From positions 118,993 through 182,992 of the forward strand of contig CAZWXQ010000001.1 of assembly GCA_964637955.1 (NCBI GenBank): 64,000 nt of DNA. The letters run 5' to 3'. This DNA is from an uncultured Gammaproteobacteria bacterium (lineage in GTDB: Bacteria; Patescibacteriota; Microgenomatia; Levybacterales; UBA12049). The notes under the pieces were generated by a model. It was not told where the DNA came from. It saw only the letters and a list, made by a program, of their open reading frames with translations, and made no database searches. Both the position numbers and the translations under genes were made by a program. Positions 9,920-48,667 of the stretch are shown piece after piece (position 1 is the stretch's first letter; each line of letters opens with the position of its first letter).

Positions 9920-9993
9920 CTCCTGATCTTTTCCTGGATTTTTCCTGACAATTTTCAGTTTTTAATCTTCCAAGATTATCCTATTCTCTAACT

Positions 9994-13424: not shown

Positions 13425-13465
13425 TTATTAGTTATAAATTAATGAAAAACAGAAAGTTTGAGTAT

Positions 13466-14052: not shown

Positions 14053-14325
14053 CGGGAGTTAGTAGTAGCTAAGCGGTGAAGCAAGAACAAGAAAAACATT
14101 CGATATTAAAATCGCATGTTTTTCTTTGGATTAAATATAGTATTTTAAGCCTAGACTTAATCAAAATCCTGCGGTACTGTGTACTCAAATGAATACAGAG
14201 GCAGGAATACTTAAGCTAATAACTAGATGCGAGAATTACTTCTATAAGTACCTCTTAACACAAGATAAATCATACATAGACAAATACTTTAAAACTTCAA
14301 GTCAACTCAAAAGAAAGGTTAAGAA

Positions 14326-15618: not shown

Positions 15619-15684
15619 TTCATAAAATATTATCCTTAATTTGCCTCAATTCAATCTATAGGATAAAATGCTGCATATAAATTT

Positions 15685-19675: not shown

Positions 19676-19678
19676 AAA

Positions 19679-22654
19679 TTACCTTATTTCTATATGTCTT
19701 GTAAGGATGTCATTTCTGATTTGATGAATTTTTTTATTTATGGCACTTGTTGGAACTAGTAAAGAATCTGTTGCAGGATCAAAATTAGGACTATCATAAA
19801 ATCCTTCTTCATTTAAGGACTTTTGACTAAAAGATCCACCTTTTGGAGAAATTCTATCAAGCGCGTCAGCATTATAATGCAATATTTTAACTGGCCTGTT
19901 TGGTTCAATCATTACTGCCATTCCACCAGTTACAGCCTGATAACCTAGACCCATTTCAAATGATGATTGTTTTGCTAAAGCAGGTGCAACTGCCATAAGT
20001 TTATGTTGATGAAGTAAAGCTTGAAAATGATGCCAATGTGCAAATAAAGCAATATTTATTTGTTCTGCAGTTAATCCTAAACCTCTTAATAAGTCTATTG
20101 CTTGGTAGACCGGCATGCCAGGAGTTGCCCCCTTGCCACCTTTACCTAAAATTTTATGTTGTCCTGCAACTAGAATTTCACCTACTTTATCTAATGCTAA
20201 ATGTGAATCAAGAAAATCTCCTTCACGTGTTAGAATTCTCTCTGATATAGATACCCTAGGATCATTTCGGTCAACTCCGTACCAATCCCTGAATGACATA
20301 TCTGTTTCTCTTACACCATTTATTCCTGTTTTGTCATAACTACTCCCATCAAACTCGTGATTTCCAACTGCACCAACTATCTTTTCAATAAGTCCTTGAA
20401 TCTGTCTGTGCGAAAGATCAGAAGTGGTACCTTTTAGGACTGCATCAAACATGTCAAATTGATCAGGAACTCTATGTAGACCTAATGCAGGGGCTTCATT
20501 CATGAACTTAGAATAAACTGTTGCCCCGTGAGTTAAATCTCCAAGAGGCATCAATCTTACATGTCCTCTATTTGGTAGGTCTTTAACAACATGTCTAACC
20601 CAGTGAATTCCTCTTCTAAAATCTGTAGTGGGTGAACCAATTTGCCAATCATTTAATGTAGCATAAATCGTTGTTTCTGGAACTGATTCGGATAAAGCTA
20701 ATAATTTTTCGTCAAAAAAACTAACCTCCATTACACCATCCTTAAGAGAAGTCATAATAGCTCCTGGCTCTGAAGGGCGTCCTCTTGTATAAAGTGCTCT
20801 CATTGCTGGGTTTTTACCCGATTGTGCATACATTCCCTGCTGATCTATAACATCTCTACTACTAACCATTCCGGGTAAATCCATAATGGCTCCGTGTCTT
20901 GTTGCAGTTATTATCCCTTCATAATTTCCCGTTCCTACTAATAGATCGGGCACAAGCTCTCCATTAATTACCAATTCTTTAGAAATCATCGTTGGAATTC
21001 TCATGATTTCTTGATGAATAGTTGGGCCATCCATTTTAAATCTATTTCTTACCCACTGAGTAACTTCTGAATCTTTTTTACTTTGCATGCTTATATTTGC
21101 TCCATCAGTAACGGTAAAACTATCCCTTAACCACGGCCCGGGGATATTGTTAACATCTACAATTTGTTGAAATGCTGCAGGAACTATCTCTGCTGGAATG
21201 AAAGCTTCATCTTCTTCATGTGCTTCCCATGCTATACTTAACGCTTGATGTGCTTCCCAAAGCATAAGATACTCTTCCATTCTGATTCCCCCTTTAGTAA
21301 AAGCTTCTACTTCATCAGCAGACTTAAGTCCTCTGCCGTTTCTTAGCATGTATTCAAAAACTACATCATGCTCAAATATTTTATGCATCGGATATTCTCT
21401 ACTTGATTCAATCTTATGAATATCTTCAAAAGTCATATAGCTTCCTTTCTCAGAATCTCTTAATGGATTCGCAGCACTTCTAATTACTTTAACTGCTTCA
21501 ATTGCGCCATCTCTAATATGATTTCTATCGTTAACGCCCATCACGTATATAATTGGAACTCCAATTTCCCTAAGCATTTCGATAAGCTCTTTTGAGGCTC
21601 TAAATTGATCTTCTGAGCTGGAAAGAGAAAGACCTACAGTCGCATCTACGTTTGTATGCTTATGGGTGCCTTCTACAATATTTCCAACTACGATAGCGTC
21701 TGGTCTTTCTTTTTCTGGTAATTCCTTTACTGTTTCAATAACTTGTTTTACGAATCTTGAGTCACTTACTGAGGATCCAGTAATAATCCCATCAAGCCAA
21801 AGTGTTCTATTTTTTTTGCTTGATTTTATCTCTACATCAGGTACTCTGAATCTATCTCTTGATGCATCTTGAGCTGTAATCACATCATCCCAAGATTCAA
21901 TTGGTTTATGAGATGTGCTAAGCGCATCGCTTGAAGCAAATACACCTTTTAGCTCCCAGAAGCCCAACGCATGTCTCTTTTTACCTATAGATGTTAATTT
22001 AATTGTTCCTTTTGCGGTTGTTCTAATATATCCAGTTTCATCAAATGAGCTTATTATTTGAGTAACTAAATCTAATGGTATTTCTCTAAATCTTTCGGAA
22101 ACTGCATCTTTGATTTCATCTGCCGTTTTCGCACCTGAACTCAATTGGTCTTTTATAACAGATCCTACTTTATTGTATATATCCGGAGGAACTATATTTA
22201 TGAGTTCTGCATTTATTCTTGTTTTATCTATAGCTTGATCTTCACCCTCGTGTAAATCATGTTCCTGAGTGCTAGTTCTGATCAAATCAAGCGCAGCATC
22301 AAATGTAGAATTCGAGTCAGATTCTAAAGATTCTTGAGGCATTGAGCCATCAGGTTCAGGGGTTGAAACTGATGGCTCCTCAGTAATTAAAGGTAATTCA
22401 ATTTGTTCTCCTTCGATTATAATCTGTTCAGGATCACCTAAGATTTGACCTTCTAAAACAACTTGAGTAAATGCTGGAAACATTAAATCTGCACCTTCTA
22501 AAGATTCACCAAGCATTAAATATAGGGGATCTGGGTTTAGAGCTAATGGACTTAACATGCTTGAGTCATCGATACCAGTGGTGATTTCAACGGGTGGGGA
22601 AGATGGTATAGTTGCTAAAATTGGATCAATATTGCCTTTATCTCTTTCAGTCAT
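19679..22654 (-). CDS. Large (991 aa) protein with acidic low-complexity N-terminus and two calcineurin-like metallophosphoesterase-like modules (module 2: GDLTHG … GNHEFDG … FAHWHH; module 1 degenerate: DGIITGS … GNIVEG … GVNDRNH)
   Basis: MPP signature motifs read from translation; no family-level match recognised. Confidence 0.5.
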   Translation of the reverse strand: MTERDKGNIDPILATIPSSPPVEITTGIDDSSMLSPLALNPDPLYLMLGESLEGADLMFPAFTQVVLEGQILGDPEQIIIEGEQIELPLITEEPSVSTPEPDGSMPQESLESDSNSTFDAALDLIRTSTQEHDLHEGEDQAIDKTRINAELINIVPPDIYNKVGSVIKDQLSSGAKTADEIKDAVSERFREIPLDLVTQIISSFDETGYIRTTAKGTIKLTSIGKKRHALGFWELKGVFASSDALSTSHKPIESWDDVITAQDASRDRFRVPDVEIKSSKKNRTLWLDGIITGSSVSDSRFVKQVIETVKELPEKERPDAIVVGNIVEGTHKHTNVDATVGLSLSSSEDQFRASKELIEMLREIGVPIIYVMGVNDRNHIRDGAIEAVKVIRSAANPLRDSEKGSYMTFEDIHKIESSREYPMHKIFEHDVVFEYMLRNGRGLKSADEVEAFTKGGIRMEEYLMLWEAHQALSIAWEAHEEDEAFIPAEIVPAAFQQIVDVNNIPGPWLRDSFTVTDGANISMQSKKDSEVTQWVRNRFKMDGPTIHQEIMRIPTMISKELVINGELVPDLLVGTGNYEGIITATRHGAIMDLPGMVSSRDVIDQQGMYAQSGKNPAMRALYTRGRPSEPGAIMTSLKDGVMEVSFFDEKLLALSESVPETTIYATLNDWQIGSPTTDFRRGIHWVRHVVKDLPNRGHVRLMPLGDLTHGATVYSKFMNEAPALGLHRVPDQFDMFDAVLKGTTSDLSHRQIQGLIEKIVGAVGNHEFDGSSYDKTGINGVRETDMSFRDWYGVDRNDPRVSISERILTREGDFLDSHLALDKVGEILVAGQHKILGKGGKGATPGMPVYQAIDLLRGLGLTAEQINIALFAHWHHFQALLHQHKLMAVAPALAKQSSFEMGLGYQAVTGGMAVMIEPNRPVKILHYNADALDRISPKGGSFSQKSLNEEGFYDSPNFDPATDSLLVPTSAINKKIHQIRNDILTRHIEIR

Positions 22655-25540: not shown

Positions 25541-27703
25541 TTATCTTCCAAATCTATTAGTTATATCCCTAAGTCTTTTTAATTTGTAAGTTGGTTTTGC
25601 TCCGTAAGGATCAATTTCTTCTTCAGTTATTAAAGCAGTTTTAAGCCCAAGAGCATTTCCTGCAATAATATCGTCTTCCTGTTTATCTCCTACATATAAT
25701 ACCCGATCAGAAGCTGCTATGCCCAGTAGCTCAAGTGCTTTTGCAATTGGTTCAGGATGAGGTTTTCTTCTATCAACGTTATCTCTAGTAATAATTACAT
25801 CAAAATATTTTTCAATATCATATCTTTTCAAACTTCTCATAAGAGAATTTATTCTGCGCGTAGTAACAATTCCCATTTTTTTACCTGATTTTTTGAGTGT
25901 CTCAAGCATTTCTACTGTATCTTCGGAGAGCGTAAAATAATGATCCAGAGTTCCAGAAACTTCTTTATTTACTGCCTCAATTTCTTCTTCGGTAATTGGA
26001 TTTTCAGAGCTTTTTTCAGAGTGCATTCTCGCCATAATTTTAACCATTTCTTTCCAATCACTTCTATTTCCAATTTCTATAATTTCTTCATCGCTGAAAA
26101 ATAGACCCATACGCAAGCTAATCTCTTTCATTCTTGCTGCTAGTTCTTCCTTATCTCCAAACTGGAGAGTGTTATCAAAGTCAAAAAGCACCGCATCAAT
26201 TGCATGCGCATCATCAAGAATTCCTCGTTCAACTTTCTGTCTGAGCTCCCGGTATCTTATAGCAGCTTCCTGGGCATTTTTTGGAGCATCGCCGACATAA
26301 TCTCTTGGTCTTAGGGTAAGTAGAGCCTGTCTTTTTTCGGGATCTTGAATTGTACTCATGACAAGATCTTGATACTGGGTTCTATTGAGACGTTTTCCTT
26401 GTGTTGCATCTTTTATTTGCATGTAACTCCCAGGATTTCCTTCCATCCTAAGCGCTAGTTGAATAGCTTCAGCAAAAATTTCATAATGTCTTTCTAATTC
26501 AGCTTCAGTAATTTCGGTATCAATTCTGACTTGCGCTAAGTCATCTGCAATATAAGCTAGTCCTGCTAGGCTCATTCCAAGCATTTCTCCATAGCCTCTT
26601 TCCCATGCATGATCATGAGAATCTCTTTCCAAATCAGTTTTAATCAGTCCATCAGCTGCGCCATTAATTAAATTTGAACTTTTGTCTAAAGTTCCTCTTC
26701 CTGTTTCGAATCTCCAGGGATTTGGGGCTTTATGTGCCATAACCGAAGAGCCGATCTGACCAGGTCGTGGTGCTAAAAATACATGATCTTGAAGGATATA
26801 AAGTCCTACATTTTCAGCAAGACTTACTGCGATTGTATTCATTGTTTTTATTTGATGAAGGAAATCTACAATATCAATATGATTATTGGTTTGATTTGTT
26901 GTCTCAAGATACGTAAATCCAAACCTTTCGACGAAATCTCTACTAAATGCTCTGTAGTCAAAGTCTGGTGCTAAAACTGAGATTGCATTGTTATTTCCAA
27001 CTGCTCCCGAAAATTTTGCCCCCAATCTAACTTTGCCCATTTCCTCTACTTCCTTCATCATTTTTTCTAAGTGCTCAGAAAATCTTTTTCCATAGGTGGT
27101 TGGAGAAGCAGCTTGATAATGAGTCCTTCCAAGAACGGGAGTATCTTTATGCTCCTCTGCAAGTAAAGCTAATCTATCCATGATTCCTACTGCTTGAGGT
27201 AACCACGCTTCATTTATAGCGTCTCGAAACATGAGGTTAAGTGCAACATTATTTATATCTTCAGAAGTAACTGCAAAATGAATCCATTCCTTCAGATGGC
27301 CATTTCCGCTAGCATCGAATAGCTCTCCTAAGTATAGTTCTACTGATTTAACATCATGTTCAGTTGGATACTTTCTCTGTTCTTCTTCTTGACCATCTTT
27401 TAATCTTCCAATATGGTCATACTCCGTGACAATTTTTGGATCAAATACATCTGGAGAAGTAAGTCCTCGAAGATTTGATTTAGTCATTTCATCTATTTCG
27501 GGTTTTCCTGGGAAATCACTTTCAGATAGCGCAATCAAAGCTTCAACTTCTATAATTGCTCTATATCGGTGGAACGCTCCTTCTGAAAGAATTGGAGCTA
27601 TCTCTCGGGTAAATGGAGCGTCTCTTCCATCAACTGTTGAGACCTGGTCGAGACTTCTGGTATAAATTTCTTCTCTCGCTCTCAGATCTTTCTCTGCTGA
27701 CAT
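25541..27703 (-). CDS. purB: Adenylosuccinate lyase (long E. coli-type PurB; signature GSSVMAHKAPNP) fused to C-terminal HAD-superfamily hydrolase domain (DFDNT … KPHPEP … GDKQEDD)
   Basis: N-terminal ~470 aa align by eye to E. coli PurB including HF(A/C)xTSEDINN and SSxMxxKxNP; C-terminal ~230 aa carry HAD motifs I-IV. Confidence 0.7.
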   Translation of the reverse strand: MSAEKDLRAREEIYTRSLDQVSTVDGRDAPFTREIAPILSEGAFHRYRAIIEVEALIALSESDFPGKPEIDEMTKSNLRGLTSPDVFDPKIVTEYDHIGRLKDGQEEEQRKYPTEHDVKSVELYLGELFDASGNGHLKEWIHFAVTSEDINNVALNLMFRDAINEAWLPQAVGIMDRLALLAEEHKDTPVLGRTHYQAASPTTYGKRFSEHLEKMMKEVEEMGKVRLGAKFSGAVGNNNAISVLAPDFDYRAFSRDFVERFGFTYLETTNQTNNHIDIVDFLHQIKTMNTIAVSLAENVGLYILQDHVFLAPRPGQIGSSVMAHKAPNPWRFETGRGTLDKSSNLINGAADGLIKTDLERDSHDHAWERGYGEMLGMSLAGLAYIADDLAQVRIDTEITEAELERHYEIFAEAIQLALRMEGNPGSYMQIKDATQGKRLNRTQYQDLVMSTIQDPEKRQALLTLRPRDYVGDAPKNAQEAAIRYRELRQKVERGILDDAHAIDAVLFDFDNTLQFGDKEELAARMKEISLRMGLFFSDEEIIEIGNRSDWKEMVKIMARMHSEKSSENPITEEEIEAVNKEVSGTLDHYFTLSEDTVEMLETLKKSGKKMGIVTTRRINSLMRSLKRYDIEKYFDVIITRDNVDRRKPHPEPIAKALELLGIAASDRVLYVGDKQEDDIIAGNALGLKTALITEEEIDPYGAKPTYKLKRLRDITNRFGR

Positions 27704-30735: not shown

Positions 30736-31935
30736 ATGGATATTCAAAGATTAAAAGACATTTTTGAAAAAGCTGGCACATATGCTATTGTTGTGGGTCA
30801 AAACTACACAATAGACGAAATGGGCTCAGCCCTCTCTATTTATTTAACTCTTAAATCACTTGGTAAAGATGTAAGCGTGATTTCAGGAAAAGAACCACTT
30901 GTTGAAGTTTCAAATTTAGTTGGAATTGACAGCGTAAAATCAAGCTTTGAATCAGCTTCTGGAGATCTTATAGTTTCATTTCCATATCAACAGGATGAAA
31001 TTGGAAAAGTTTCATATACTCTTGAGGATGGTTTATTAAACATTATAGTAAAACCAAAAGACCAGCCTCTTTCATTCGGTGAAAAGGATGTTATTTTCAA
31101 AAGAAGTGGAAGTAATCCAGAAGTTATTATTACCGTTGGTGTTAAGAGAATATCAGAGCTTCAAACTTTCTTTGATGTTCAATCCCTTAAGGATACAACT
31201 ATTATAAATATAGATAGAGCAGGAAATAATGAAGGGTTTGGAGATGTAGTTATAGTTGGTCAGGGTGCTTCGTCTGTTTCTGAGCAAGTAGCAAACCTTA
31301 TGCTTTCACTAGGATACCCACTTGACGCAGATATTTCTCAAAACCTTATAGGTGGAATAGTAGCTTCAACTGGAAATTTCCAGAGTCCAAGAACAAGTTC
31401 GCTTGCATTTGAAATGGCTGGAATACTTCTTAGAAATGGTGCTAAAAGAGAAGCTTTAAGATCACAAAATCCAGGACAAACTAGAACTCCACAGCAGTTT
31501 GGATATAACATGACTGGAGATAATCAGCCACAAATCCCACCAATGCCATCAATGCCAGGTCTTCCACCTATGCCGAGACCACAAATGAATCAACCAAGAC
31601 AACAACAGGCAAGAGCCCAAATGCCGAGACCACAACGTGCTCCTATGCCAAGACCACAAATACCACCTATGCCTAGCTCACAGAGGAGTCCATTAGATGA
31701 CGATCAATTACCACCACCACCTATGCCAAGGTCTCAAAAAAGTCCAATAGATGATGATCAAATGTCACCTATGAGCCAAAATGATAAGATAAATCAAATT
31801 AACCAACAGCTCTCAAGTATGAGTGGAGACTATCAAAAAGAGGCAAAAATAGATGATGCACCAATTGACACCCCAGATGCGCCGCCAGATTGGCTCGCAC
31901 CAAAAATCTTCAAAGGATCTACAACAGTTGAGTAA
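30736..31935 (+). CDS. DHH/DHHA1-like (NrnA-like) protein with degenerate DHH catalytic motifs and a C-terminal Pro/Met/Gln-rich repeat tail (PPMPSMPGLPPMPRPQMNQPRQQQ…)
   Basis: Overall NrnA-like topology and DHHA1-like GGGH-equivalent region (IGGIVAS); canonical DHH/PDGD residues replaced (GQNYTIDEMGS). Confidence 0.45.
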   Translation: MDIQRLKDIFEKAGTYAIVVGQNYTIDEMGSALSIYLTLKSLGKDVSVISGKEPLVEVSNLVGIDSVKSSFESASGDLIVSFPYQQDEIGKVSYTLEDGLLNIIVKPKDQPLSFGEKDVIFKRSGSNPEVIITVGVKRISELQTFFDVQSLKDTTIINIDRAGNNEGFGDVVIVGQGASSVSEQVANLMLSLGYPLDADISQNLIGGIVASTGNFQSPRTSSLAFEMAGILLRNGAKREALRSQNPGQTRTPQQFGYNMTGDNQPQIPPMPSMPGLPPMPRPQMNQPRQQQARAQMPRPQRAPMPRPQIPPMPSSQRSPLDDDQLPPPPMPRSQKSPIDDDQMSPMSQNDKINQINQQLSSMSGDYQKEAKIDDAPIDTPDAPPDWLAPKIFKGSTTVE

Positions 31936-32582: not shown

Positions 32583-32852
32583 ATGCCTCTAAGTACAACA
32601 CAAAAACAAGAGATTATAGAGAAGTTCGCTATTGAAAAAGGCGATACTGGTAGTCCTGAGGTGCAAATTGCACTTCTTACTACAAGAATTGAAAAGCTCA
32701 CAGAGCATTTAAAAGCTCATGGTCATGATGTTCATAGTAGACGCGGATTATTAACTATGATTGCTAAGAGAAGAAGACTTATTAACTTTTTAACAAAAGT
32801 TGATAAGGCGCGTGCTGGTGACATTACTAAAAAAGTAGGATTGAAAGATTAA
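32583..32852 (+). CDS. rpsO: Ribosomal protein S15
   Basis: …GDTGSPEVQIALLTTRIEKLTEHLKAH…HSRRGLL…RRRLINFL… canonical S15. Confidence 0.9.
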   Translation: MPLSTTQKQEIIEKFAIEKGDTGSPEVQIALLTTRIEKLTEHLKAHGHDVHSRRGLLTMIAKRRRLINFLTKVDKARAGDITKKVGLKD

Positions 32853-32923
32853 GAAGAATAGATTAAAATAAACTTCATAGTCCTCGTATTTAGTAGTTGT
32901 GTGAGAGAGAATAAAATAAATAA

Positions 32924-35341
32924 ATGAAAAAAACCTCAGTAGAATTAGAGTTAGCCGGAAAAAAGTTAACATTTGAAACAGGCGAATTAGCAGTACAAGC
33001 TACAGCGTCTATTTTGGCGCGCCTTGGAGATACTGTGGTTCTAGTTACAGTTGTAGAAGGCGGAAAAACTGATCTCGATTACTTCCCACTTTCTATTGAA
33101 TATCAAGAAAGACTTTTTGCTGGTGGAAAAATAAAAGGTTCAAGATGGGTAAAAAGAGCTGGAAGACCAACAGATGAATCTATTTTAGCAGGAAGACTTA
33201 TCGACAGATCTGTAAGACCACTTTTTCCAAAGACATTTAAAAATGAAGTTCAGGTTATCGTAACTATTCTTTCTGTTGATGGAGAAAATCAGGCAGACAT
33301 TCTAGCTTTAAATGCAGTTTCTGCAGCGCTCGCAATTTCAAGAATTCCATGGAACGGTCCAATTGGTGCAACCAGAATGGGTTATTCTCTTGAAAAGCAG
33401 GAATTGATCGCAAATCCTACTCTTCCAGAAACACAGACTTCAGAGCTCGATATCGTTTTCTCTCAATCTGTTGATAAAACAGTTATGATTGAGGCTGGAG
33501 CAAATCAAGTTTCTGAGGATATCCTAAATGATGCTATAGCAAAGGCTCATATTGAAACTCAAGCAGTTATAAAAGGAATTGAAGAATTAGTTAAGAAAGT
33601 GGGACAGAAAAAAATTGAAGTAAGTGAAGATGCAAGTCTTCACGATGTTGTTGGTTTAATCGAAAAATCTTATAAATCAGAAGTTGAAGGACTAATTGAA
33701 AATCGCGTAAGTAAAGAAAGTGGTGGAGATGAAACTGGAGCTTTAGTAGATAAGATTTTTGAAGATGAAAAAGTAAGAGATCCAAAAACTGAAATTGATA
33801 AAAAGACAATCGGAGCTGCAATTGAAAAAGTAATGTTTAAAATCATAAGAACAAATGTTATTTCTAAGAAAAAAAGAGCAGATGGTAGAAAAATGGATGA
33901 AATCAGAGAAATTAATATGTCACTTGATCTTCTCCCAAGAACTCATGGATCTGCACTATTTCAGCGAGGAATCACCCAAGCTTTATCAGTAGTTACTCTT
34001 GGGAGTCCTAGAATGGGACAACTTCTTGAGTCAGCTGAAGGCGAAGAGGAAAAGAGATATATTCATCATTATTCAGGTCTTCCTTATTCATTTGGACAAG
34101 CAGGAAGAGTAAGTGGAGCTTCACGTAGAGAAATTGGTCATGGTGCGCTCGCAGAAAGAGCGCTTCTTGCAGTTATTCCTTCACAAGTAGATTTCCCTTA
34201 CACAATTCAAGTAGTTTCTGAAGTTTTGTCACAAAACGGATCTAGCTCTATGGCTTCAACTTGTGGATCAACTTTGGCTCTTATGGCTGCTGGAGTTCCA
34301 ATCAGAAAGCCAGTTGCTGGAATCTCAATCGGTATGATGTCGGACGAAAAAGATTATGAGCTTTTGACTGATATTATCGGACTTGAAGATTTTTCAGGTG
34401 ACATGGATTTCAAAGTTGCAGGAACAGACGCTGGTGTTACAGCAATTCAGCTGGATGTAAAAATCCCAGGACTTACTGATGAGCAGGTTAAAAATATTCT
34501 CGAAAGAGCAAAAACAGCAAGACTAGAAATTCTAGAAAAAATAAAAGCAATTATTCCTGAGCCTAGAAAACAGTTATCGACTTATGCTCCAAAGATAGAA
34601 AATGTACAGATTCCAGTTGATAAGATTGGTGAGCTCATCGGACCAGGTGGAAAGATGATTAAGCACATCATAGCTACAACTGGAGCTCAGGTAGATGTAG
34701 AAGATGATGGAATGGTTACTATTTCAGGCGTAGATCAAGAAGGTGTAACTAAAGCAACTGATTGGATTAAGAATATGATGAGAGAAGTAACACCTGGAGA
34801 AATTTTTGAAGATTGTGAAGTAAAGAGAATGCTCGCATTTGGAGCCTTCGTGGAATTCTTGCCAGGAAAAGAAGGAATGGTGCACGTTTCTCAAATGAGT
34901 AATGAGTACGTAAAAGATCCTTCAGACGTGATGAATATTGGTGACAAAGTAAAAGTAAGAGTAATGGAGATTGATGATCAAGGAAGAATAAATCTTTCTA
35001 TGAAATTTAATGAAGATGGAAGTATCCCGCCTGATGATAATAGAGGAAATAGAGGCGGTGGAGACAGAGGTCATCAAGGAGGAAATGGTGGAGGTTATAA
35101 TAGAGGTGGCGGAGATAGAGGCGGAAGCAGGCCTCCATATAATTCAAGACCATCTTATTCATCTAATTCAAATGGAACTCCAAGGCCTCCAATGAGAGGG
35201 CCAAGACATGATGATCCAACAGCAGGACCTGCAACTCCACATCCACTCGCAATGCAATTTAGAAGAGAGCGTGAAGAAAATTATAAAAGAGATAGAAGAC
35301 CAGGAAGTAGTCCTCGTCCTTACAAAAAAACCCACTATTAA
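32924..35341 (+). CDS. pnp: Polynucleotide phosphorylase (two RNase PH domains, KH, S1) with Gly/Arg-rich (RGG-like) C-terminal low-complexity extension
   Basis: Canonical PNPase motifs; C-terminal ~110 aa GNRGGGDRGHQGGNGGGYNRGGGDRGGSRPP…. Confidence 0.9.
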   Translation: MKKTSVELELAGKKLTFETGELAVQATASILARLGDTVVLVTVVEGGKTDLDYFPLSIEYQERLFAGGKIKGSRWVKRAGRPTDESILAGRLIDRSVRPLFPKTFKNEVQVIVTILSVDGENQADILALNAVSAALAISRIPWNGPIGATRMGYSLEKQELIANPTLPETQTSELDIVFSQSVDKTVMIEAGANQVSEDILNDAIAKAHIETQAVIKGIEELVKKVGQKKIEVSEDASLHDVVGLIEKSYKSEVEGLIENRVSKESGGDETGALVDKIFEDEKVRDPKTEIDKKTIGAAIEKVMFKIIRTNVISKKKRADGRKMDEIREINMSLDLLPRTHGSALFQRGITQALSVVTLGSPRMGQLLESAEGEEEKRYIHHYSGLPYSFGQAGRVSGASRREIGHGALAERALLAVIPSQVDFPYTIQVVSEVLSQNGSSSMASTCGSTLALMAAGVPIRKPVAGISIGMMSDEKDYELLTDIIGLEDFSGDMDFKVAGTDAGVTAIQLDVKIPGLTDEQVKNILERAKTARLEILEKIKAIIPEPRKQLSTYAPKIENVQIPVDKIGELIGPGGKMIKHIIATTGAQVDVEDDGMVTISGVDQEGVTKATDWIKNMMREVTPGEIFEDCEVKRMLAFGAFVEFLPGKEGMVHVSQMSNEYVKDPSDVMNIGDKVKVRVMEIDDQGRINLSMKFNEDGSIPPDDNRGNRGGGDRGHQGGNGGGYNRGGGDRGGSRPPYNSRPSYSSNSNGTPRPPMRGPRHDDPTAGPATPHPLAMQFRREREENYKRDRRPGSSPRPYKKTHY

Positions 35342-35757: not shown

Positions 35758-35902
35758 TCAGGGATTGTAGCATAAATAATATACTATATCAAAATATATC
35801 ACTTATGAATATATGATAGCGTTATTTAATTCAATGGAATATGAATCGCTCTTTGATTGTTTTTAAAAAGATTTGCAAGGGTTTATAGCTTATAATTACC
35901 TA

Positions 35903-36574
35903 ATGAATGTATCGATTATAATTCGAGTAAAAAACGAAAAGGAAAATCTCGATAAACTTATAAAAATCTTAAAAGAACAAACATTTCAGGATTTTGAAGT
36001 AGTAATTGTTAATAATAATTCTTCAGACGGTTCAGATAAAGTTCCTTATGATTATTTTCCAAAAGAGAGAATTCAAATTGCTAATATTGATAGATTTACA
36101 TATTCCAAGGCATGCAATGAAGGGGTAAGAAAAGCCCGTGGAAAGTTTATTGTATTTCTTTCAGCGCATGCATATCCAATGACAAAAACATGGCTAGAAG
36201 ATGGTTTAAAAGACTTTAATGATAATAAAGTTGCTGCAGTTTTTGCATTTCCAGTCGCTGGAAGTGATGGAGGTGTCTGGGAAAAAATAAGTAGTATTCC
36301 AAATTACATTAAGAGAGGTGGATATATGGGAAATACAGATTCAATTATTAGACGCAATTTATGGGAAGAACATAAATTCGACGAAGAATTAATTAATGGC
36401 TCCGAAGATTACGAATGGTCATTATATTGGTCTAAGGAAGGCTGGAAAATAGTAAATGATCCCAAATTTAGAGTTTACCATTCTCATGGATTGAGCTTAA
36501 CTGAAATATTGAAACAACATAAAATGTGGAGTAAACAAAAAAAGGAAATAAATAATAAGTTTTTGATAAGATAA
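35903..36574 (+). CDS. Family 2 glycosyltransferase (…VSIIIRVKNEKENL…VVIVNNNSSDGSDKV…)
   Basis: GT2 N-terminal signature; start likely ATG 35903 (TATAAT at 35891-96). Confidence 0.6.
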   Translation: MNVSIIIRVKNEKENLDKLIKILKEQTFQDFEVVIVNNNSSDGSDKVPYDYFPKERIQIANIDRFTYSKACNEGVRKARGKFIVFLSAHAYPMTKTWLEDGLKDFNDNKVAAVFAFPVAGSDGGVWEKISSIPNYIKRGGYMGNTDSIIRRNLWEEHKFDEELINGSEDYEWSLYWSKEGWKIVNDPKFRVYHSHGLSLTEILKQHKMWSKQKKEINNKFLIR

Positions 36575-36578
36575 CGTT

Positions 36579-37571
36579 ATGGATCAACTAGTAGAAAAAC
36601 CTCAAGTGCCAGAGTTGGAACCGCTTCCTGCAAATTTAGATTTTCAAATATATTTTTCTCCTCATGGAACGCCTAAAGACTTTGAAGGTCTTCATGCGCT
36701 CATTGAAAATGCAGATATTTATATTCCTGAGGGATACGGATGGGATCTTGAGACATTAAATTTATTCAGAGAAGTATCTAAAGGGACAAAAACGATCGAC
36801 GACGCAAGAGAGTTAGGAGTTACTGACATGGGATTAGTTGAGCTCATTTCTCTTTACAATACAGGAAAACTTGTAACATTTATTGATCTACCAGGAGATA
36901 AGGTTGAGAGAGATCCACTCCTTTTGATGTCTGCTAGAAGCGTAGAAGATTTGTATGATAATGCAAGACATTATTTGCAAAAAAAAGGCTTAATGGATAG
37001 ATCAAGAGAAGAATACATGTTAAGTGTTCTAGATGAAAAAATCCGGATTGAACTAGGTAAAAATTCAGAATTAAAAGATAAACCACGAATTAATGTTTTA
37101 TTATCATTGGGCAGTTTTCATACTGGAATTTATCATGAATTAAAAAGACAAGGTAGAAATGTCAGTAGAACTTTAAATGGTGAGTTTGTTTATGGCCCCA
37201 TAGAAGAAGTAAAAAGGAGGTTTAGATTTGGAAAAGAGGTGAGCGAAGAGCTAATCGCACAGGCTTTTTTAGAGAACGTTTTCTACTCAGTTTTTAATTC
37301 CCGATTAAGTGATTTAACAGAAGAAACAAATAAGATATTGGAATTTGAAGGACTAGTGGCTAGATGCTTTAGTCAAGATGAAATAAATGATATTTTTAGA
37401 AATTTACCTTTACATGGTTGGGATTATTTTAAGGGATCATTTGAAAGTTATATCCAGTATTTATTAGAGAAAAAAGGAATTAAGATTCCTGAATCCGAAG
37501 AAGAGTTGAGTGAAATTATTAAGCAAAATCAAGTATCCAAACAAACGCCCAGAAAACAAATTAAGGAATGA
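36579..37571 (+). CDS. Hypothetical protein (330 aa)
   Basis: ORF only. Confidence 0.35.
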   Translation: MDQLVEKPQVPELEPLPANLDFQIYFSPHGTPKDFEGLHALIENADIYIPEGYGWDLETLNLFREVSKGTKTIDDARELGVTDMGLVELISLYNTGKLVTFIDLPGDKVERDPLLLMSARSVEDLYDNARHYLQKKGLMDRSREEYMLSVLDEKIRIELGKNSELKDKPRINVLLSLGSFHTGIYHELKRQGRNVSRTLNGEFVYGPIEEVKRRFRFGKEVSEELIAQAFLENVFYSVFNSRLSDLTEETNKILEFEGLVARCFSQDEINDIFRNLPLHGWDYFKGSFESYIQYLLEKKGIKIPESEEELSEIIKQNQVSKQTPRKQIKE

Positions 37572-37632: not shown

Positions 37633-38721
37633 TTGGTAAATGATAAGATAATATATATGGATAAAACTGCCCAAGGATTAGCCGCTGAGATCACAAAACT
37701 CGAACAGGAATTAGCCAGTAATAAGCTTCCTCCTGAGCTTCTTGAAAAAGGTCGAGGAATGATTGAAATTCTTAAAGTTTCACTTGCTCAGGGTGGAAAT
37801 TATGGAAATCTTGAGGGAGTAGCAAATTATATAGATGTAATTTCGGCAATTCCATTTGAAACTATGACACCTGATAACTCAGATTTAAATAATGCTAAAG
37901 AAATTCTTAACAAAAATCATTATGGACTTGCTACGGCTAAAGATAGAATTTTAGAATACCTGGCCTCAATTATGCTTAATATAAAAAATAATAATACATC
38001 AGTGACTCATGCTCCGATTCTTTGCTTAGTCGGGCTCGTAGGAACTGGAAAGACTACTCTTTCAAAGTCAGTGGCAGATGCGCTGGGACGTAAGTTTGAG
38101 CGTATTCCTCTTGGAGGAATGGGAGATGTAAGAGCAATAAGAGGTCAATCTCGAGTTTATCCAGACGCAGAACCTGGTCAAATCATAAAGAAAATAATTC
38201 ATGCTAAGAGTAAAAACTGTGTGATTCTTCTTGATGAATTAGATCGCGTAACTGACGCTGCACGTGCAGATATTATGGGTGCACTAGTTGAGCTTTTGGA
38301 TCCAGAGCAAAATATGGCTTTTACGGATCACTACGTAGATTTTCCGGTAGATTTAAGTAATGTTCTATTTATCGCAACAGCAAATAATACAACAAACATT
38401 TCGACAGCAGTTCTCGACCGTCTTGAGTTAATACAAATGCCTTCATATTCAGATGAGGAGAAAATGGTAATTGGCAAGAATTTTCTTCTTCCAAAAATCG
38501 CTGCATTTTCAGGATTGCAACCAAATACGCTTGCAGTTGATGATAGCGTTTGGCCACTTATAATTCGCCCTCTCGGATTTGACTCAGGTATTAGAAGTTT
38601 GGAGAGGACAATTGAAGGGATTTGTCGAAAGGTGGCAAGGCTTTTGGTCGAAGGCCAAATTCAGCAAGGTGCTATAATTACAATTAATTCACAGAATATA
38701 AAACAATTCATGCCCCAATGA
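37633..38721 (+). CDS. Lon-like AAA+ ATPase module only (Walker A GLVGTGKTT, LLDELDR, LDPEQN…DHYVDFPVDLSNVLFIATAN, LDRLELI); no LON N-domain and no S16 protease domain
   Basis: Strong motif-by-motif resemblance to the ATPase domain of LonA; ORF ends at 38721 and next gene is RNase J. Confidence 0.65.
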   Translation: MVNDKIIYMDKTAQGLAAEITKLEQELASNKLPPELLEKGRGMIEILKVSLAQGGNYGNLEGVANYIDVISAIPFETMTPDNSDLNNAKEILNKNHYGLATAKDRILEYLASIMLNIKNNNTSVTHAPILCLVGLVGTGKTTLSKSVADALGRKFERIPLGGMGDVRAIRGQSRVYPDAEPGQIIKKIIHAKSKNCVILLDELDRVTDAARADIMGALVELLDPEQNMAFTDHYVDFPVDLSNVLFIATANNTTNISTAVLDRLELIQMPSYSDEEKMVIGKNFLLPKIAAFSGLQPNTLAVDDSVWPLIIRPLGFDSGIRSLERTIEGICRKVARLLVEGQIQQGAIITINSQNIKQFMPQ

Positions 38722-38784
38722 TAAAATTTATTGGGATAATAATCCCAAAAGATTGGGAAGTGGGATTAAAACCCAAATAAAATA

Positions 38785-40461
38785 TTGAAAATAAAAATGA
38801 ATACAAATGATACATTAAAATACTTACCTCTTGGTGGCGTAACCGGCGTTACCAAAAACATGCATTTATATGAATATAACGACCAGATTCTAATTGTAGA
38901 TTGTGGAATTGGTTTTGCAGATGAAAATATGCTTGGAGTGGACCTTATGCTTCCAGATATTTCCTATTTACTTAAAAATCCTCAGAAAAAAATTGTCGGA
39001 ATAGCCATTACTCATGGACACGAAGATCACTTGGGTGCGCTTCCATATATTCTTCCCCAGCTTCCAGGAAAATTTGACGTTTTCGCGACGCCTCTTGCAG
39101 CAGGTTTTATAAATGAAAAATTAAAGGAATTTAATCTTAATTCAAAAGTAGTAAGTATTAATTTTGATCGCGATGTGCTTCTAGGACCTTTTATGATTTC
39201 ATTTATCAGAGTTACTCACTCGGTTCTAGATACTTCAAATATTTTTATAAAAACTCCGGTCGGAAATATTTATCATGGGTCTGATTTTAAATTTGATATG
39301 ACTCCATATGATGGTCATAAATCCGATTTTGCGAAGATTGTGCGCAAATCAGACGAAGGAATAATGTGTCTTATGTCAGACTGTTTGGGCGCTGAGAGAG
39401 TAGGATTTACTCCAACAGAACTTCCAATTGGAGACAAGATTTATGAAGAAATGAAAAGCACTACAGGTAAGTTTATAGTTACTACTTACTCTTCAAACAT
39501 AAATAGACTTAATCAAATTCTAGACGGCGCAAAAGCTCTAAATAGGAGGATATGCTTTGTAGGCAGGTCACTTATAAAAGCAAAAGATGTTGCAGTTTCC
39601 CTAGGTTACATGAAGATAGATAAGAATATGGAAATTGAACTGCACGATGTTAGAAATTATAACGATAAACAGGTAGTTCTAATAGTCGCAGGAAGTCAGG
39701 GTCAGGAGAATTCTGCCTTAAGTAGAATTGCTCATGGAGATCATAGAGATATAAGAGTAAATCCAAATGACACCATTCTTTTTTCTTCAGATCCTATTCC
39801 GGGAAATGAAATTGCAGTAAATTCTCTGATAGATGATATAGCTAAAGCTGGAGCGAGAGTGCTTTATTCAACAGTTTCAAATAACCTTCATGTTTCAGGT
39901 CATGGCCCACAGGGAGATTTGTCACTTCTTATGAGTTTGGTTCGACCTAAAAAGGTTTTGCCGATTGGGGGAACTTATAAGCATATGGTGGCATATAAAA
40001 ATCTAGCAAAGAAAAATGGATTTGAGAATAAAGATATACTTTTGCCTGATGATGGTCAGGAAGTTGTATTTACTAAGGCTGGAGATGCAAGGTTGGGAAA
40101 GAAGATCGCTCTTCAAAATATTTATGTAGATCAAGTTTCAGGTGAAGAAGTAGACACTTTTGTTCTTAGAGATCGTGAGAAGATTTCTAAAGAAGGTGTG
40201 GTTATTGTAATGTGCGAAGTTGATACATTTGGAGGATTGGTCGATAAACCAAATATAATAGTTCGAGGATTTTCTGGTGCAGAAGTTCCTGAAATAGTGA
40301 ATGGACTTGCGGCTGAAATAAAAAATAACATTAAGCCAAAAAATACAAAAGTTAATGATTGGGCATATGTAAGAAAGTCTATTGGAAATATATCCGAGCG
40401 CTATCTCGGCAAGAAAATGAAACGACATCCTCTAGTTCTTCCCGTAGTTATTGAGGTTTAA
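38785..40461 (+). CDS. rnj: Ribonuclease J (MBL + beta-CASP + C-terminal domain; HGHEDHLGALPYI)
   Basis: N-terminal …LPLGGVTGVTKNMHLYEY…; canonical RNase J motifs. Confidence 0.85.
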   Translation: MKIKMNTNDTLKYLPLGGVTGVTKNMHLYEYNDQILIVDCGIGFADENMLGVDLMLPDISYLLKNPQKKIVGIAITHGHEDHLGALPYILPQLPGKFDVFATPLAAGFINEKLKEFNLNSKVVSINFDRDVLLGPFMISFIRVTHSVLDTSNIFIKTPVGNIYHGSDFKFDMTPYDGHKSDFAKIVRKSDEGIMCLMSDCLGAERVGFTPTELPIGDKIYEEMKSTTGKFIVTTYSSNINRLNQILDGAKALNRRICFVGRSLIKAKDVAVSLGYMKIDKNMEIELHDVRNYNDKQVVLIVAGSQGQENSALSRIAHGDHRDIRVNPNDTILFSSDPIPGNEIAVNSLIDDIAKAGARVLYSTVSNNLHVSGHGPQGDLSLLMSLVRPKKVLPIGGTYKHMVAYKNLAKKNGFENKDILLPDDGQEVVFTKAGDARLGKKIALQNIYVDQVSGEEVDTFVLRDREKISKEGVVIVMCEVDTFGGLVDKPNIIVRGFSGAEVPEIVNGLAAEIKNNIKPKNTKVNDWAYVRKSIGNISERYLGKKMKRHPLVLPVVIEV

Positions 40462-47074: not shown

Positions 47075-48667
47075 ATGGAAAGAAAAGCAGCTCATGGTTA
47101 CACTCCGGGTTTAGATGCGCAGCTGGATTCGGACAGAGGATTCAGCGTGAATATAGAAGTAGAGTTATTAGCAAATGAAAGGCAAACGCTTTTTATGCTT
47201 GGTCAAGGCAATAGCTTAAATTTTGTATCAGGCCAGCTTGGTGTCGAGGTTGGCAATCTCAAAACAAATTTGAAAACAATGAGAAGTCGTTTAGGAGTAA
47301 ATACAAATCTTGGAGCTTTGAGAATGGCGATGCAGCAGAGAATTTTAAGTGCTCAAGAGATTTTGCCTGATGATTATACCGATGATAATTTTAGATATTT
47401 AACCCCTGAACAATTAGATGCTCTGAATAATTATTACGATAATCATGATCTGAAAAGCGATGAGGAGATTGCGGCTAAACTAGGTTTATCTGCGGAGGAT
47501 TTTCTTCAAGATCTTTATAGAGGTTTTGGTGTAATTAATGCAAAGACTATTTTAAACGCTGCAGTCATGATTCAAGCTCAAAGAGATAGATTAATTCCTG
47601 CATCTGATCCTGTTTCTGAGAATGAAGAAATTGGTCAGCTAAGCCCCGATTCACCTCGAGTTAGAGAAGTAAAAAGATCGATTAGCCCTAGAGAGCTTGA
47701 GGTATTTACACTTAAGGCAAAAGGATTAATAAATAAGGAAATAGCTGCATCGATGGGTGTCTCTGAGCAAACAGTTAAGAATCATGCAGCTTCTGCATTT
47801 GTTAAGCTAGGTGTTCAGTCCTCAGGGGAAGCGATAAGGCAAATTATTGGTATTGGGCTTATAGATATATCTGAATTATTGCCAGCAGAATTTGATCCTT
47901 CTGTGATGGGAGAAGTGTCAGATAAAGAAGCTGAGATTATAAAACATTTAGGGACTTCTGGGGATTCAAATGTCGCTATCGCTTTGAGGGTTGGCTCGAA
48001 TGAGAACACTGTTGGAAGTCGAATTTCAAAATCCATGAAAAAAACAGGCACTGTCAGTCGAGAGCAAATTATGGTTTTTTATCTCGGTGCAAAAAAGATA
48101 AAAGAAGAACAGGCTGTAGAGATGGGGGTAGATCCTGAATCCGTAGATCCTTTTGACTGGAGAAGAGAAGATCAGGAATATGAAATGCCATCATTGTCAC
48201 CCAGAGAGCTAGATGTTCTACGGGCTGTAAGTAGAGGTTTATCGAATGCTGAAATTGCAGGATTTTTGGGAAAATCTGAATATATGGTAAAGGTACAGAT
48301 GAGCTCTATTTTATATAAGTTAGATGCTAGGAATAGAGTAGTAGCAGTTAAGAAAGCAATTGATTTGAAGTTAGTTGACATAGGGGAAATTACAAGTGAT
48401 GAATTGGAACTAATTAATTCTCTTTCAAATAGGGAGAAAGAATTACTAGAATTAATAGCTTCAAGTGGACTTTCGAATAAAGAGCTTGCTCAACACTTGG
48501 GTATCTCAAAGTATACAGTTAACTGTCATATGTTGACCTTGTTGGGCAAGTTAGATGTAGCTAGTAGAGTTGAAGCAATGACTTTATGGATAAAAGCAAA
48601 TAGAATAATCGATTCGACTTCTGAAGCTGAACAAGATGTGGTTTATTCTTCAGAAGCAGTTATTTAG
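47075..48667 (+). CDS. Protein composed of six tandem LuxR/GerE-type HTH modules (three canonical, three degenerate)
   Basis: Repeated …SPRELEVLxLxAxGLSNKEIAxxLGxSExTVKxHxxxxxxKLxVxxRxxA… units at ~aa 30, 105, 200, 280, 370, 440. Confidence 0.6.
   Translation: MERKAAHGYTPGLDAQLDSDRGFSVNIEVELLANERQTLFMLGQGNSLNFVSGQLGVEVGNLKTNLKTMRSRLGVNTNLGALRMAMQQRILSAQEILPDDYTDDNFRYLTPEQLDALNNYYDNHDLKSDEEIAAKLGLSAEDFLQDLYRGFGVINAKTILNAAVMIQAQRDRLIPASDPVSENEEIGQLSPDSPRVREVKRSISPRELEVFTLKAKGLINKEIAASMGVSEQTVKNHAASAFVKLGVQSSGEAIRQIIGIGLIDISELLPAEFDPSVMGEVSDKEAEIIKHLGTSGDSNVAIALRVGSNENTVGSRISKSMKKTGTVSREQIMVFYLGAKKIKEEQAVEMGVDPESVDPFDWRREDQEYEMPSLSPRELDVLRAVSRGLSNAEIAGFLGKSEYMVKVQMSSILYKLDARNRVVAVKKAIDLKLVDIGEITSDELELINSLSNREKELLELIASSGLSNKELAQHLGISKYTVNCHMLTLLGKLDVASRVEAMTLWIKANRIIDSTSEAEQDVVYSSEAVI

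What the first reader, a model, noticed from the sequence alone, without database searches (positions are those of the whole stretch)
37633..38721. Stand-alone Lon ATPase module without N-domain or protease domain
The 362-aa ORF matches the LonA AAA+ domain motif for motif, but terminates before any S16 protease domain and lacks the LON substrate-binding N-domain. The downstream gene is RNase J. It could act as an unfoldase partner of another protease or as a regulator, or be a truncated remnant.
Basis: partly seen in the sequence, partly recalled or inferred. Interest (0 to 1): 0.5.

Follow-up and report, generated by a model that had tools for sequence, protein, structure and literature searches.

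The report
Protease-less Lon-derived ATPase of Microgenomates
This gene is not a broken Lon protease but a conserved housekeeping ATPase of two groups of ultra-small (CPR) bacteria. It kept Lon's ATP motor, lost the protease and substrate-binding domains, and rewired the substrate-gripping loop, so it probably does a non-proteolytic job that is still unknown.

Summary
It matches only the helical bundle plus AAA+ module of LonA (E. coli Lon residues about 253-577), ends in tandem stops, and has no LON N-domain or S16 peptidase.

It is not a remnant. Orthologues of 344-438 aa occur in at least 592 species genomes of Microgenomatia and in Dojkabacteria. They form one clade separate from protease-bearing Lons and are under strong purifying selection (dN/dS about 0.04-0.10).

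Walker A/B, sensor-1, arginine finger and sensor-2 are invariant, so an active ring ATPase is likely. The LonA pore-loop-1 signature (HRRT-Y-[VI]-G) is replaced by an acidic x-[PA]-[DE]-A-E-P-G loop, and the aromatic residue is kept in only about a quarter of species. This argues against a classical threading unfoldase.

The gene usually lies between PNPase and RNase J (both flank it in 43 of 58 evaluable loci). No S16 domain lies within 10 kb in about 90 loci. Whether one exists elsewhere in these genomes could not be tested.

Verdict: an uncharacterised variant of a known kind, of moderate interest.

The parts
37657..38721 (+). Coding sequence of the protease-less Lon-type AAA+ ATPase (354 aa plus stop). 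The mechanical ORF begins at TTG 37633.
   Evidence: P0001 is 100% identical, is 354 aa long and starts at this ATG.
37657..37986 (+). N-terminal helical region (aa 1-110), equivalent to the LonA helical bundle that precedes the AAA+ module (E. coli Lon about 253-345).
   Evidence: Sequence alignment to Lon structures. The AF2 model shows helices 2-21, 26-44, 49-63, 77-87 and 92-110. Fold match to 6n2i over 346 columns.
38032..38055 (+). Walker A motif GLVGTGKT (K132).
   Evidence: Invariant in the family and in LonA.
38140..38178 (+). Pore-loop-1 region RGQSRVYPDAEPG. It is equivalent to E. coli Lon 392-404 (RGHRRTYIGSMPG) and has been remodelled to an acidic loop.
   Evidence: pLDDT is below 50 in the model.
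38221..38238 (+). Walker B motif VILLDE (D193, E194).
   Evidence: Invariant.
38290..38352 (+). Lon/HCLR-type pre-sensor-1 hairpin region ELLDPEQNMAFTDHYVDFPVD.
   Evidence: E212, L214, D215, P216, Q218, N219, F222 and D224 are conserved in both the short family and LonA. The role of this element in Lon is described in PMC7239648.
38377..38421 (+). Sensor-1 N243 (38383-38385) and arginine finger R255 (38419-38421).
   Evidence: Invariant; equivalent to E. coli Lon N473 and R484.
38443..38718 (+). Lon-type lid (small AAA+ subdomain) with sensor-2 R313 (38593-38595). It ends at the position where the S16 domain begins in LonA.
   Evidence: Pfam Lon_lid hit. R313 is equivalent to E. coli Lon R542 and is invariant. 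The alignment ends at E. coli Lon about 577-580.
38719..38724 (+). Tandem in-frame stop codons TGA TAA.
32583..35341 (+). rpsO (32583-32852) and pnp (PNPase, 32924-35341, with a basic RGG-rich C-terminal tail). This is the conserved upstream context.
38797..40461 (+). rnj (RNase J), the conserved downstream neighbour. No + strand terminator-like site lies in the 75-nt spacer.

Best explanation
The gene encodes a functional member of a distinct, monophyletic family of LonA-derived AAA+ ATPases found in Microgenomatia and Dojkabacteria (Patescibacteria/CPR).

What is shown:
- The family keeps the LonA helical bundle, the α/β ATPase core and the Lon-type lid.
- It has cleanly lost the LON substrate-binding domain and the S16 peptidase.
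- All residues needed for ATP binding, ATP hydrolysis and inter-subunit activation (arginine finger) are invariant.

What is inferred:
- It most likely forms an ATP-hydrolysing ring.
- The residues that grip and thread polypeptide in Lon (R395, T397, Y398, I399, G400) are replaced by a conserved acidic loop, x-[PA]-[DE]-A-E-P-G. The protein therefore most likely does not work as a classical unfoldase feeding a protease.
- It more likely acts as a non-proteolytic, ATP-driven remodelling, chaperone-like or regulatory machine. This would be a fixed version of the protease-independent activity long ascribed to Lon.
- Its usual position in the rpsO-pnp-[this gene]-rnj string, and its acidic pore, make basic or RNA-associated proteins plausible clients. 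These could be the PNPase RGG tail, RNase J or ribosomal proteins. This last step is speculative.
For: - Domain content and boundaries.
- Fold: AF2 model with pLDDT 76.8, matching LonA AAA+ structures over its full length (6n2i: TMq 0.80, TMt 0.83).
- Family size and length: the best 120 database hits are 349-358 aa apart from one 280-aa entry. At least 592 relatives occur in GTDB species genomes, and the 80 best are all Microgenomatia with 344-438 aa ORFs. The Dojkabacteria branch is 347-456 aa and has no P domain.
- Monophyly: an NJ tree puts all protease-less 'DAEPG' proteins in one clade of 117 sequences, separate from 108 other Lon-type sequences, mostly protease-bearing.
- Selection: dN/dS is 0.04-0.10.
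- Motifs: K132, D193/E194, N243, R255 and R313 are conserved at 90% or more in both groups. LonA-invariant H394, R395, T397, Y398 and G400 are lost.
- Pore loop: 110 of 112 protease-bearing representatives are aromatic at the pore-loop position. In 76 short-family species the residue is H21, F14, S14, R8, Y6 and others. The roles of Y398/I399 and R395/R396 in substrate gripping are described in PMC7239648.
- No S16 or LON domain in the window or in about 90 loci with flanks of up to 10 kb.
- Synteny: PNPase lies upstream in 53 of 66 loci, RNase J downstream in 51 of 66, and both in 43 of 58. Gaps to rnj are often under 20 nt. PNPase also lies upstream in Dojkabacteria.
Against: - No experiment exists. 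Oligomeric state and ATPase activity are inferred from sequence only. In LonA the protease domain contributes much of the hexamer interface (general knowledge), so a ring without it is not guaranteed.
- The window protein itself, like other Levybacteria, still has an aromatic residue (Y168, or F) in the pore loop. Threading cannot be excluded for this subgroup.
- Whole genomes could not be searched, so a distant S16 or other peptidase partner is not excluded.
- The pnp/rnj context may be inherited gene order rather than functional coupling. About 11 Roizmanbacteria-type loci place the gene next to groES-groEL instead, and two Dojkabacteria loci have other contexts.
Confidence: 0.6

Rival explanations
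1. Split Lon. The ATPase docks in trans onto a separately encoded S16 peptidase (or a LonB/YlbL-like protein) located elsewhere in the genome, rebuilding an ATP-dependent protease.
For: The truncation falls exactly at the AAA+/P-domain boundary. ATPase motifs are intact. Two-component AAA+ proteases such as ClpXP and HslUV show that the principle works (general knowledge).
Against: No S16-like sequence lies within 10 kb of the gene in the window, in 80 Microgenomatia loci or in 4 Dojkabacteria loci. Partners of split enzymes are usually adjacent. The pore-loop-1 gripping residues are not conserved. The closest protease-bearing relatives come from unrelated phyla, not CPR.
Confidence: 0.12
2. 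Dedicated accessory of the RNA-decay machinery. The ring is co-expressed with PNPase and RNase J and remodels or assembles them (a CPR 'degradosome' ATPase). Its acidic pore loops may engage the basic RGG-rich tail of PNPase.
For: The gene is flanked by pnp and rnj in 43 of 58 evaluable species loci, with gaps to rnj often under 20 nt. pnp is also upstream in Dojkabacteria. No + strand terminator-like site separates the gene from rnj in the window. The PNPases of these genomes carry 28-121 aa basic RGG-rich tails. The pore loop is acidic.
Against: rpsO-pnp...rnj-ftsK looks like an inherited housekeeping gene string in which unrelated genes (GT2, UDG, a metallophosphoesterase) also sit. Adjacency to rnj is lost in Dojkabacteria and Roizmanbacteria-type loci. 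No physical or phyletic coupling was tested.
Confidence: 0.15
3. Genuine unfoldase that hands substrates to a non-Lon peptidase such as ClpP, or works as a disaggregase-type chaperone by threading.
For: The window protein and its close relatives retain Y or F at the pore-loop position. A conserved P-L-G-[FY]-D motif (aa 305-309) superficially resembles the ClpP-docking IGF/LGF tripeptide. Some loci lie next to groES-groEL or clpB.
Against: The aromatic residue is absent in about three quarters of species, and the neighbouring hydrophobic residue is replaced by Pro/Ala plus acidic residues. The LGF motif sits in a 5-residue lid loop next to sensor-2, not on a long protruding loop. No ClpP gene was seen in any locus. 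No CIRCE heat-shock operator precedes the gene, although clpB-like and dnaJ genes in the same loci have one.
Confidence: 0.08
4. Pseudogene or recent truncation of a full-length lon gene.
For: The gene matches only the middle third of LonA.
Against: Orthologues in hundreds of species have the same length. dN/dS is 0.04-0.10. The gene ends in tandem stops, with no S16 remnant downstream in any frame. The family forms a single clade with its own conserved motifs.
Confidence: 0.01

Closest known systems
LonA protease (endopeptidase La, MEROPS S16; E. coli Lon, human LONP1)
   Same: About 40% identity over the helical bundle plus AAA+ module. Same fold. Same Walker A/B, sensor-1, arginine finger, sensor-2, pre-sensor-1 hairpin and Lon-type lid.
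   Different: No LON/PUA-like N-domain or coiled coil. No S16 Ser-Lys peptidase domain. Pore-loop-1 HRRT-Y-[VI]-G is replaced by an acidic x-[PA]-[DE]-A-E-P-G loop, and the pore-loop-2 region is also changed (G434 and P436 lost). The protein falls below the TIGR00763 cut-off.
Engineered E. coli Lon fragment 235-584 (PDB 6n2i, 'Lon protease AAA+ domain')
   Same: Almost the same boundaries as the natural protein; best sequence hit and best reciprocal fold match.
   Different: 6n2i is a laboratory truncation of a protease. This is a naturally evolved, conserved stand-alone gene with a divergent pore loop.
LonB and LonC subfamilies
   Same: They are Lon-family variants in which one module has been altered. 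LonC has a degenerate ATPase and LonB lacks the N-domain (general knowledge; subfamily overview in PMC9569914, abstract seen).
   Different: All described Lon subfamilies keep the protease domain. Here the protease is the module that is missing, and the ATPase is intact.
Non-threading AAA+ ATPases that lack an aromatic pore loop (for example MoxR/RavA-type chaperone-like ATPases, torsins)
   Same: Ring ATPase motifs are retained without a conserved aromatic pore-loop residue. This suggests remodelling rather than processive translocation. It is an analogy from general knowledge and was not tested.
   Different: There is no close sequence relationship. This family is clearly derived from LonA in the HCLR clade.

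Membership tests
LonA protease (TIGR00763 / MEROPS S16) | C-terminal S16 peptidase domain with a Ser-Lys dyad (Pfam Lon_C, PF05362) | tested here: not met
   No Lon_C hit. The protein ends at the AAA+/P boundary with tandem stops. tblastn with the E. coli Lon P-domain is negative in the window and in 80 loci.
LonA protease (TIGR00763 / MEROPS S16) | N-terminal LON substrate-binding domain (PF02190) | tested here: not met
   No Pfam hit. tblastn with E. coli Lon residues 1-250 (window) and 1-245 (loci) is negative. The protein starts at E. coli Lon position about 250.
LonA protease (TIGR00763 / MEROPS S16) | Full-length score at or above the curated cut-off of the equivalog model | tested here: not met
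   321.5 bits against a cut-off of 608.05; only model positions 254-573 of 795 are matched.
LonA protease (TIGR00763 / MEROPS S16) | Pore-loop-1 aromatic-hydrophobic pair (Y398-I399) with tandem arginines R395-R396 | tested here: not met
   The window protein has S-R-V-Y-P-D. Across 76 species the aromatic residue (Y or F) is present in 20, and R395 is replaced by Ser in 70 of 76. In 112 protease-bearing representatives the position is aromatic in 110. In 74 canonical HRRT-type LonA the Tyr is 100% conserved.
LonA protease (TIGR00763 / MEROPS S16) | Lon-type AAA+ module with Lon lid | tested here: met
   Pfam AAA plus Lon_lid. About 40% identity to Lon structures. Fold match.
AAA+ ATPase, HCLR clade (catalytically competent ring ATPase) | Walker A Lys, Walker B Asp-Glu, sensor-1 Asn, trans arginine finger, sensor-2 Arg, pre-sensor-1 hairpin | tested here: met
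   K132, D193/E194, N243, R255, R313 and the LDPEQN...F.D segment are conserved at 90% or more in 90 family members and in LonA.
AAA+ ATPase, HCLR clade (catalytically competent ring ATPase) | Hexamer formation and measurable ATPase activity | not testable with these tools
   Only a monomer model could be made. Biochemistry is needed.
Two-component AAA+ protease (ClpX/ClpA-type partner of ClpP) | Protruding IGF/LGF docking loop, and a ClpP gene in the genome or operon | tested here: inconclusive
   A conserved P-L-G-[FY]-D exists (aa 305-309), but it lies in a short lid loop next to sensor-2. No ClpP was seen in any fetched locus. Whole genomes were not searchable.
Split Lon (trans-acting S16 partner) | A stand-alone S16 peptidase encoded in the same genomes | not testable with these tools
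   None lies within 10 kb in about 90 loci. Complete genomes could not be scanned.

The most novel reading that the evidence does not exclude
The family is a dedicated ATP-driven component of a CPR RNA-decay complex. It would be a Lon-derived ring, co-transcribed with PNPase and RNase J, whose acidic pore loops engage the basic RGG-rich tail of PNPase or other basic RNA-binding proteins. It would assemble, recycle or regulate the RNases, taking the place that DEAD-box helicases hold in other degradosomes.
Probability: 0.12. Interest if true: 0.8.

Novelty: new variant of a known kind. Interest (0 to 1): 0.5.

Why it matters
Every described Lon subfamily keeps the protease domain. This family is a natural, ancient and strongly conserved experiment in which only the Lon motor survived and its substrate-gripping loop was rewritten.

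It offers a clean system for asking what a Lon ATPase can do without proteolysis. That bears on the long-debated chaperone-like and nucleic-acid-related roles of Lon.

It also bears on how genome-reduced CPR bacteria manage proteostasis and RNA turnover. The family is a core gene of Microgenomatia and Dojkabacteria, currently annotated only as 'AAA family ATPase' or, wrongly, 'ATP-dependent Lon protease'. A correct family definition would improve annotation of many CPR (Microgenomatia and Dojkabacteria) genomes.

Tried and rejected
- Frameshift or hidden protease domain. tblastn with the E. coli Lon P- and N-domains against the window (E up to 10) and against 80 loci gave only noise.
- Pseudogene. 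Rejected by the orthologue survey and by dN/dS.
- Extra folded domains in longer family members. The N- and C-terminal extensions of P0127, P0129, P0130, P0144, P0146, P0162 and P0193 are low-complexity Q/P/S/T-rich sequence with no Pfam hits.
- Heat-shock (HrcA/CIRCE) control. CIRCE-like sites precede clpB-like and dnaJ genes in some loci, but no convincing one (3 mismatches or fewer) precedes this gene; the only upstream hit is a 4-mismatch site in L046.
- Anti-phage defence. Only weak generic AAA hits in PADLOC.
- Structured RNA in the window. No Rfam hit at gathering threshold.
- Promoter and terminator scan. No + strand terminator between this gene and rnj, and promoter-like sites are not enriched over shuffles.
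- Literature. Seven full-text searches, six of them aimed at a protease-less LonA or Lon in CPR/Patescibacteria, found no description. The seventh looked for the paper on E. coli Lon DNA-binding residues and did not find it, so that comparison was dropped.
- Taxonomy of the closest full-length Lons. Where named, they come from unrelated phyla: Spirochaetota, Negativicutes and Vampirovibrionia. This gave no clue to a CPR full-length ancestor.
- Whole-genome search for an orphan S16 domain. Not possible with the available tools.

Full report
**1. Observation**

The ORF at 37633-38721 (+) is real.
- Pfam detects only an AAA core (aa 130-267 of the 362-aa ORF) and the Lon-specific lid (aa 294-342).
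- The NCBIfam endopeptidase-La model TIGR00763 matches only model positions 254-573 of 795. The score is 321.5 bits against a curated cut-off of 608.
- phmmer against PDB sequences aligns residues 14-350 to E. coli Lon 253-577. The best hit is the engineered E. coli fragment 6n2i.
- The frame ends in tandem stops, TGA TAA (38719-38724). RNase J begins 75 nt later, at ATG 38797.
- tblastn with the E. coli Lon N-domain (1-250) and P-domain (585-784) gives no credible hit anywhere in the 64-kb window. There is therefore no frameshifted or displaced protease domain nearby.
- The likely true start is ATG 37657, giving 354 aa. The identical database protein and all orthologues start there.
- The first ~110 residues are homologous to the LonA helical bundle that precedes the AAA+ module. 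Only the LON/PUA-like domain and the coiled coil are missing from the N-terminus.

**2. Not a remnant: a conserved family**

- The best 120 hits among 5.8 billion proteins are 349-358 aa (one 280-aa entry aside) at 63-100% identity. They are named 'AAA family ATPase' (Levybacteria, Patescibacteria) or, by JGI, 'ATP-dependent Lon protease'.
The 80 best are all Microgenomatia where the record title gives a meaningful taxon (Levy-, Gottesman-, Shapiro-, Ames-, Roizman-, Woese-, Curtiss- and Daviesbacteria), with ORFs of 344-438 aa.
- A profile of the most distant short forms retrieved a second large branch in Candidatus Dojkabacteria. These are 347-456 aa and again have only AAA plus Lon_lid.
- In the 50%-identity representative library, short forms appear at 41-57% identity. 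Full-length Lons appear at 48% or less.
- None of ten longer relatives without a P-domain has a LON or Lon_C domain. Their extra N- or C-terminal segments are low-complexity Q/P/S/T-rich sequence.
- A neighbour-joining tree of 244 AAA+ regions places all protease-less proteins in one clade of 117 sequences. The other Lon-type sequences, mostly protease-bearing, fall outside it.
- Nei-Gojobori dN/dS between the closest orthologue pairs is 0.04-0.10. dS is close to saturation, so the values are approximate, but they are far below 1.
- The pseudogene reading is refuted.

**3. Anatomy and what it implies**

An AlphaFold2 model (mean pLDDT 76.8, pTM 0.68) has five N-terminal helices, a Rossmann-type core and a helical lid. 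It superposes on LonA AAA+ structures over its whole length. The match to 6n2i has TM 0.80/0.83 over 346 columns.

I compared 90 family members with 74 canonical LonA sequences.
- Conserved in both groups: Walker A K132, Walker B D193/E194, sensor-1 N243, arginine finger R255, sensor-2 R313, and the LDPEQN..F.D pre-sensor-1 hairpin.
- Because the trans-acting arginine finger is conserved, an oligomeric, hydrolysing ATPase is the reasonable inference. This is inferred, not shown.
- Conserved in at least 95% of LonA (H394, R395, T397 and Y398 in 100%, G400 in 95%) but lost in the short family.
- Across 76 species the 'aromatic' pore-loop position is H21, F14, S14, R8, Y6 and others. It is followed by P/A, D/E, A/S and E.
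- Among 112 protease-bearing representatives, 110 are aromatic at that position.

In substrate-bound Yersinia pestis Lon, Y398 and I399 grip the polypeptide. R395/R396 are braced by E458 of the hairpin (PMC7239648).

The family has therefore kept the motor and its internal couplings but rewritten the substrate-contacting loop into a conserved acidic one. The window protein and other Levybacteria still have Y or F at this position (RVYPDAEPG), so threading cannot be excluded for them. Family-wide non-conservation still argues against a classical unfoldase mechanism.

**4. Genomic context**

Window gene order: clp-type ATPase ... nusA - infB - unknown - unknown - rpsO - pnp - (small ORF, GT2, 330-aa unknown) - this gene - rnj ... 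ftsK.

Across the 80 Microgenomatia loci:

| Neighbour | Present within the flank | Directly adjacent |
|---|---|---|
| PNPase upstream, same strand | 53 of 66 evaluable | 40 |
| RNase J downstream | 51 of 66 evaluable | 33 |
| Both flanking | 43 of 58 evaluable | n/a |

- Gaps to rnj are often under 20 nt.
- Where genes intervene, they are a UDG-family gene and a metallophosphoesterase.
- About 11 Roizmanbacteria-type loci have a different context. There the gene is divergent from groES-groEL and convergent with an RNaseH-like PF04308 gene.
- In Dojkabacteria, one locus keeps rpsO-pnp-gene-UDG...rnj and one keeps rpsO-pnp...gene...ftsK. Two are elsewhere, one of them near groES-groEL-clpB.
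- No + strand terminator-like site lies between the gene and rnj in the window.
- No CIRCE operator precedes the gene, although clpB-like and dnaJ genes in the same loci have one.
- The PNPases of these genomes carry 28-121 aa basic RGG-rich C-terminal tails.

The context suggests co-expression with RNA-decay enzymes. It may equally be an inherited housekeeping gene string.

**5. The partner-protease question**

No S16 or LON domain was found within 10 kb of the gene in the window or in any of about 90 fetched loci. This rests on tblastn and on precomputed Pfam annotation. The window contains no ClpP or S16 gene among the larger ORFs scanned. Whole genomes could not be searched, so a distant partner remains possible. 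I give this rival about 0.12.

**6. Comparison with known systems, and novelty**

By sequence and fold the protein is a LonA AAA+ module. It fails three defining features of LonA membership: the S16 domain, the LON domain and the equivalog cut-off. It also fails the pore-loop signature.

Published classifications treat every Lon (A, B, C) as carrying both ATPase and protease domains (abstract of PMC9569914, seen). Six full-text searches aimed at this question found no description of a protease-less LonA paralogue, or of Lon in CPR. No NCBIfam model reaches its cut-off on the protein.

I therefore rate it a new variant of a known kind. It is widespread and evidently functional, but its role is unknown.

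**7. Verdict**

- Observation: confirmed.
'Remnant' is refuted, 'unfoldase for another protease' is weakened, and 'regulator or non-proteolytic ATPase' is favoured.
- Best explanation (confidence about 0.6): a ring-forming, ATP-hydrolysing, Lon-derived remodelling or chaperone-like ATPase that no longer feeds a protease, possibly acting on basic or RNA-associated proteins.
- Interest: moderate, 0.5.

Noticed in passing
window 35003-35341 (C-terminus of pnp, 32924-35341 +); also PNPase genes in L010-L084: PNPase carries a ~110-aa basic, Gly/Arg-rich (RGG-like) disordered C-terminal tail. Similar tails of 28-121 aa (net charge +4 to +13) occur in many Microgenomatia PNPases. They have short conserved end motifs: 'HPL.QFRRER' in Levybacteria-type and 'GPHFPTSR' in Woesebacteria-type sequences.
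   Followed up: partly
window about 8658-16710: Apparent integrated mobile element or prophage remnant. It contains a ParB-N/DNA methylase fusion (9994-11349), a terminase large subunit (11728-13221), a large serine recombinase (14326-15618) and a Schlafen/AlbA_2 protein (15685-16710). It lies between the clp-type ATPase and nusA, which are adjacent in the related genome L002.
   Followed up: partly
window 18548-22654 (-): A second metallo-β-lactamase/β-CASP nuclease-like protein (375 aa) lies directly downstream of a 991-aa protein with no Pfam hit.
   Followed up: no
window 36579-37571 (+) and 35873-36574 (+): A 330-aa ORF with no Pfam or PADLOC hit and a family-2 glycosyltransferase are inserted between pnp and the Lon-type ATPase. 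The 330-aa ORF and this GT2 have no counterpart in the 80 species loci. A GT2 occupies the same slot in L002/L003.
   Followed up: partly
window 25541-27703 (-): A 720-aa fusion of adenylosuccinate-lyase-like (Lyase_1 + ASL_C) and HAD-hydrolase domains.
   Followed up: no
window 47075-48667 (+): A 530-aa protein with three LuxR/GerE-type HTH repeats.
   Followed up: no
L046, L054, L055, L060, L061, L063, L065, L068, L074, L077, L083, L086: Alternative conserved context in Roizmanbacteria-type genomes. The Lon-type ATPase is divergently adjacent to groES-groEL and is often followed by a convergent RNaseH-like (PF04308) gene. In L068 a near-consensus CIRCE element lies 46 nt from that RNaseH-like gene.
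   Followed up: partly
proteins P0121-P0126, P0138, P0142, P0154 and others: Proteins of about 890-3,900 aa (mostly 1,000-1,700) with 2-4 tandem Lon-type AAA+ modules are among the highest-scoring relatives. P0121 (1113 aa) is annotated as being from Candidatus Dependentiae. Many have W instead of Y in pore loop 1 (HNRTW...).
   Followed up: no
L026 pos 64, L047 pos 281, L031 pos 1358: CIRCE-like inverted repeats (1-3 mismatches) lie upstream of clpB/clpC-like and dnaJ genes. This suggests an HrcA-type heat-shock regulon exists in Microgenomatia.
   Followed up: no
record titles of L012-L014, L023, L026-L027 and others: Many MAG records whose gene content and sequence place them in Microgenomatia are titled 'uncultured Gammaproteobacteria bacterium', and one 'Candidatus Bathyarchaeia archaeon'. 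These look like mislabelled or placeholder taxonomy in the public records.
   Followed up: no
window 30736-31935 (+) and cluster c5 in most loci: A conserved ~300-400-aa gene with no Pfam hit occupies the slot between infB and rpsO, where rbfA/truB sit in model bacteria. It is conserved across 46 loci.
   Followed up: no
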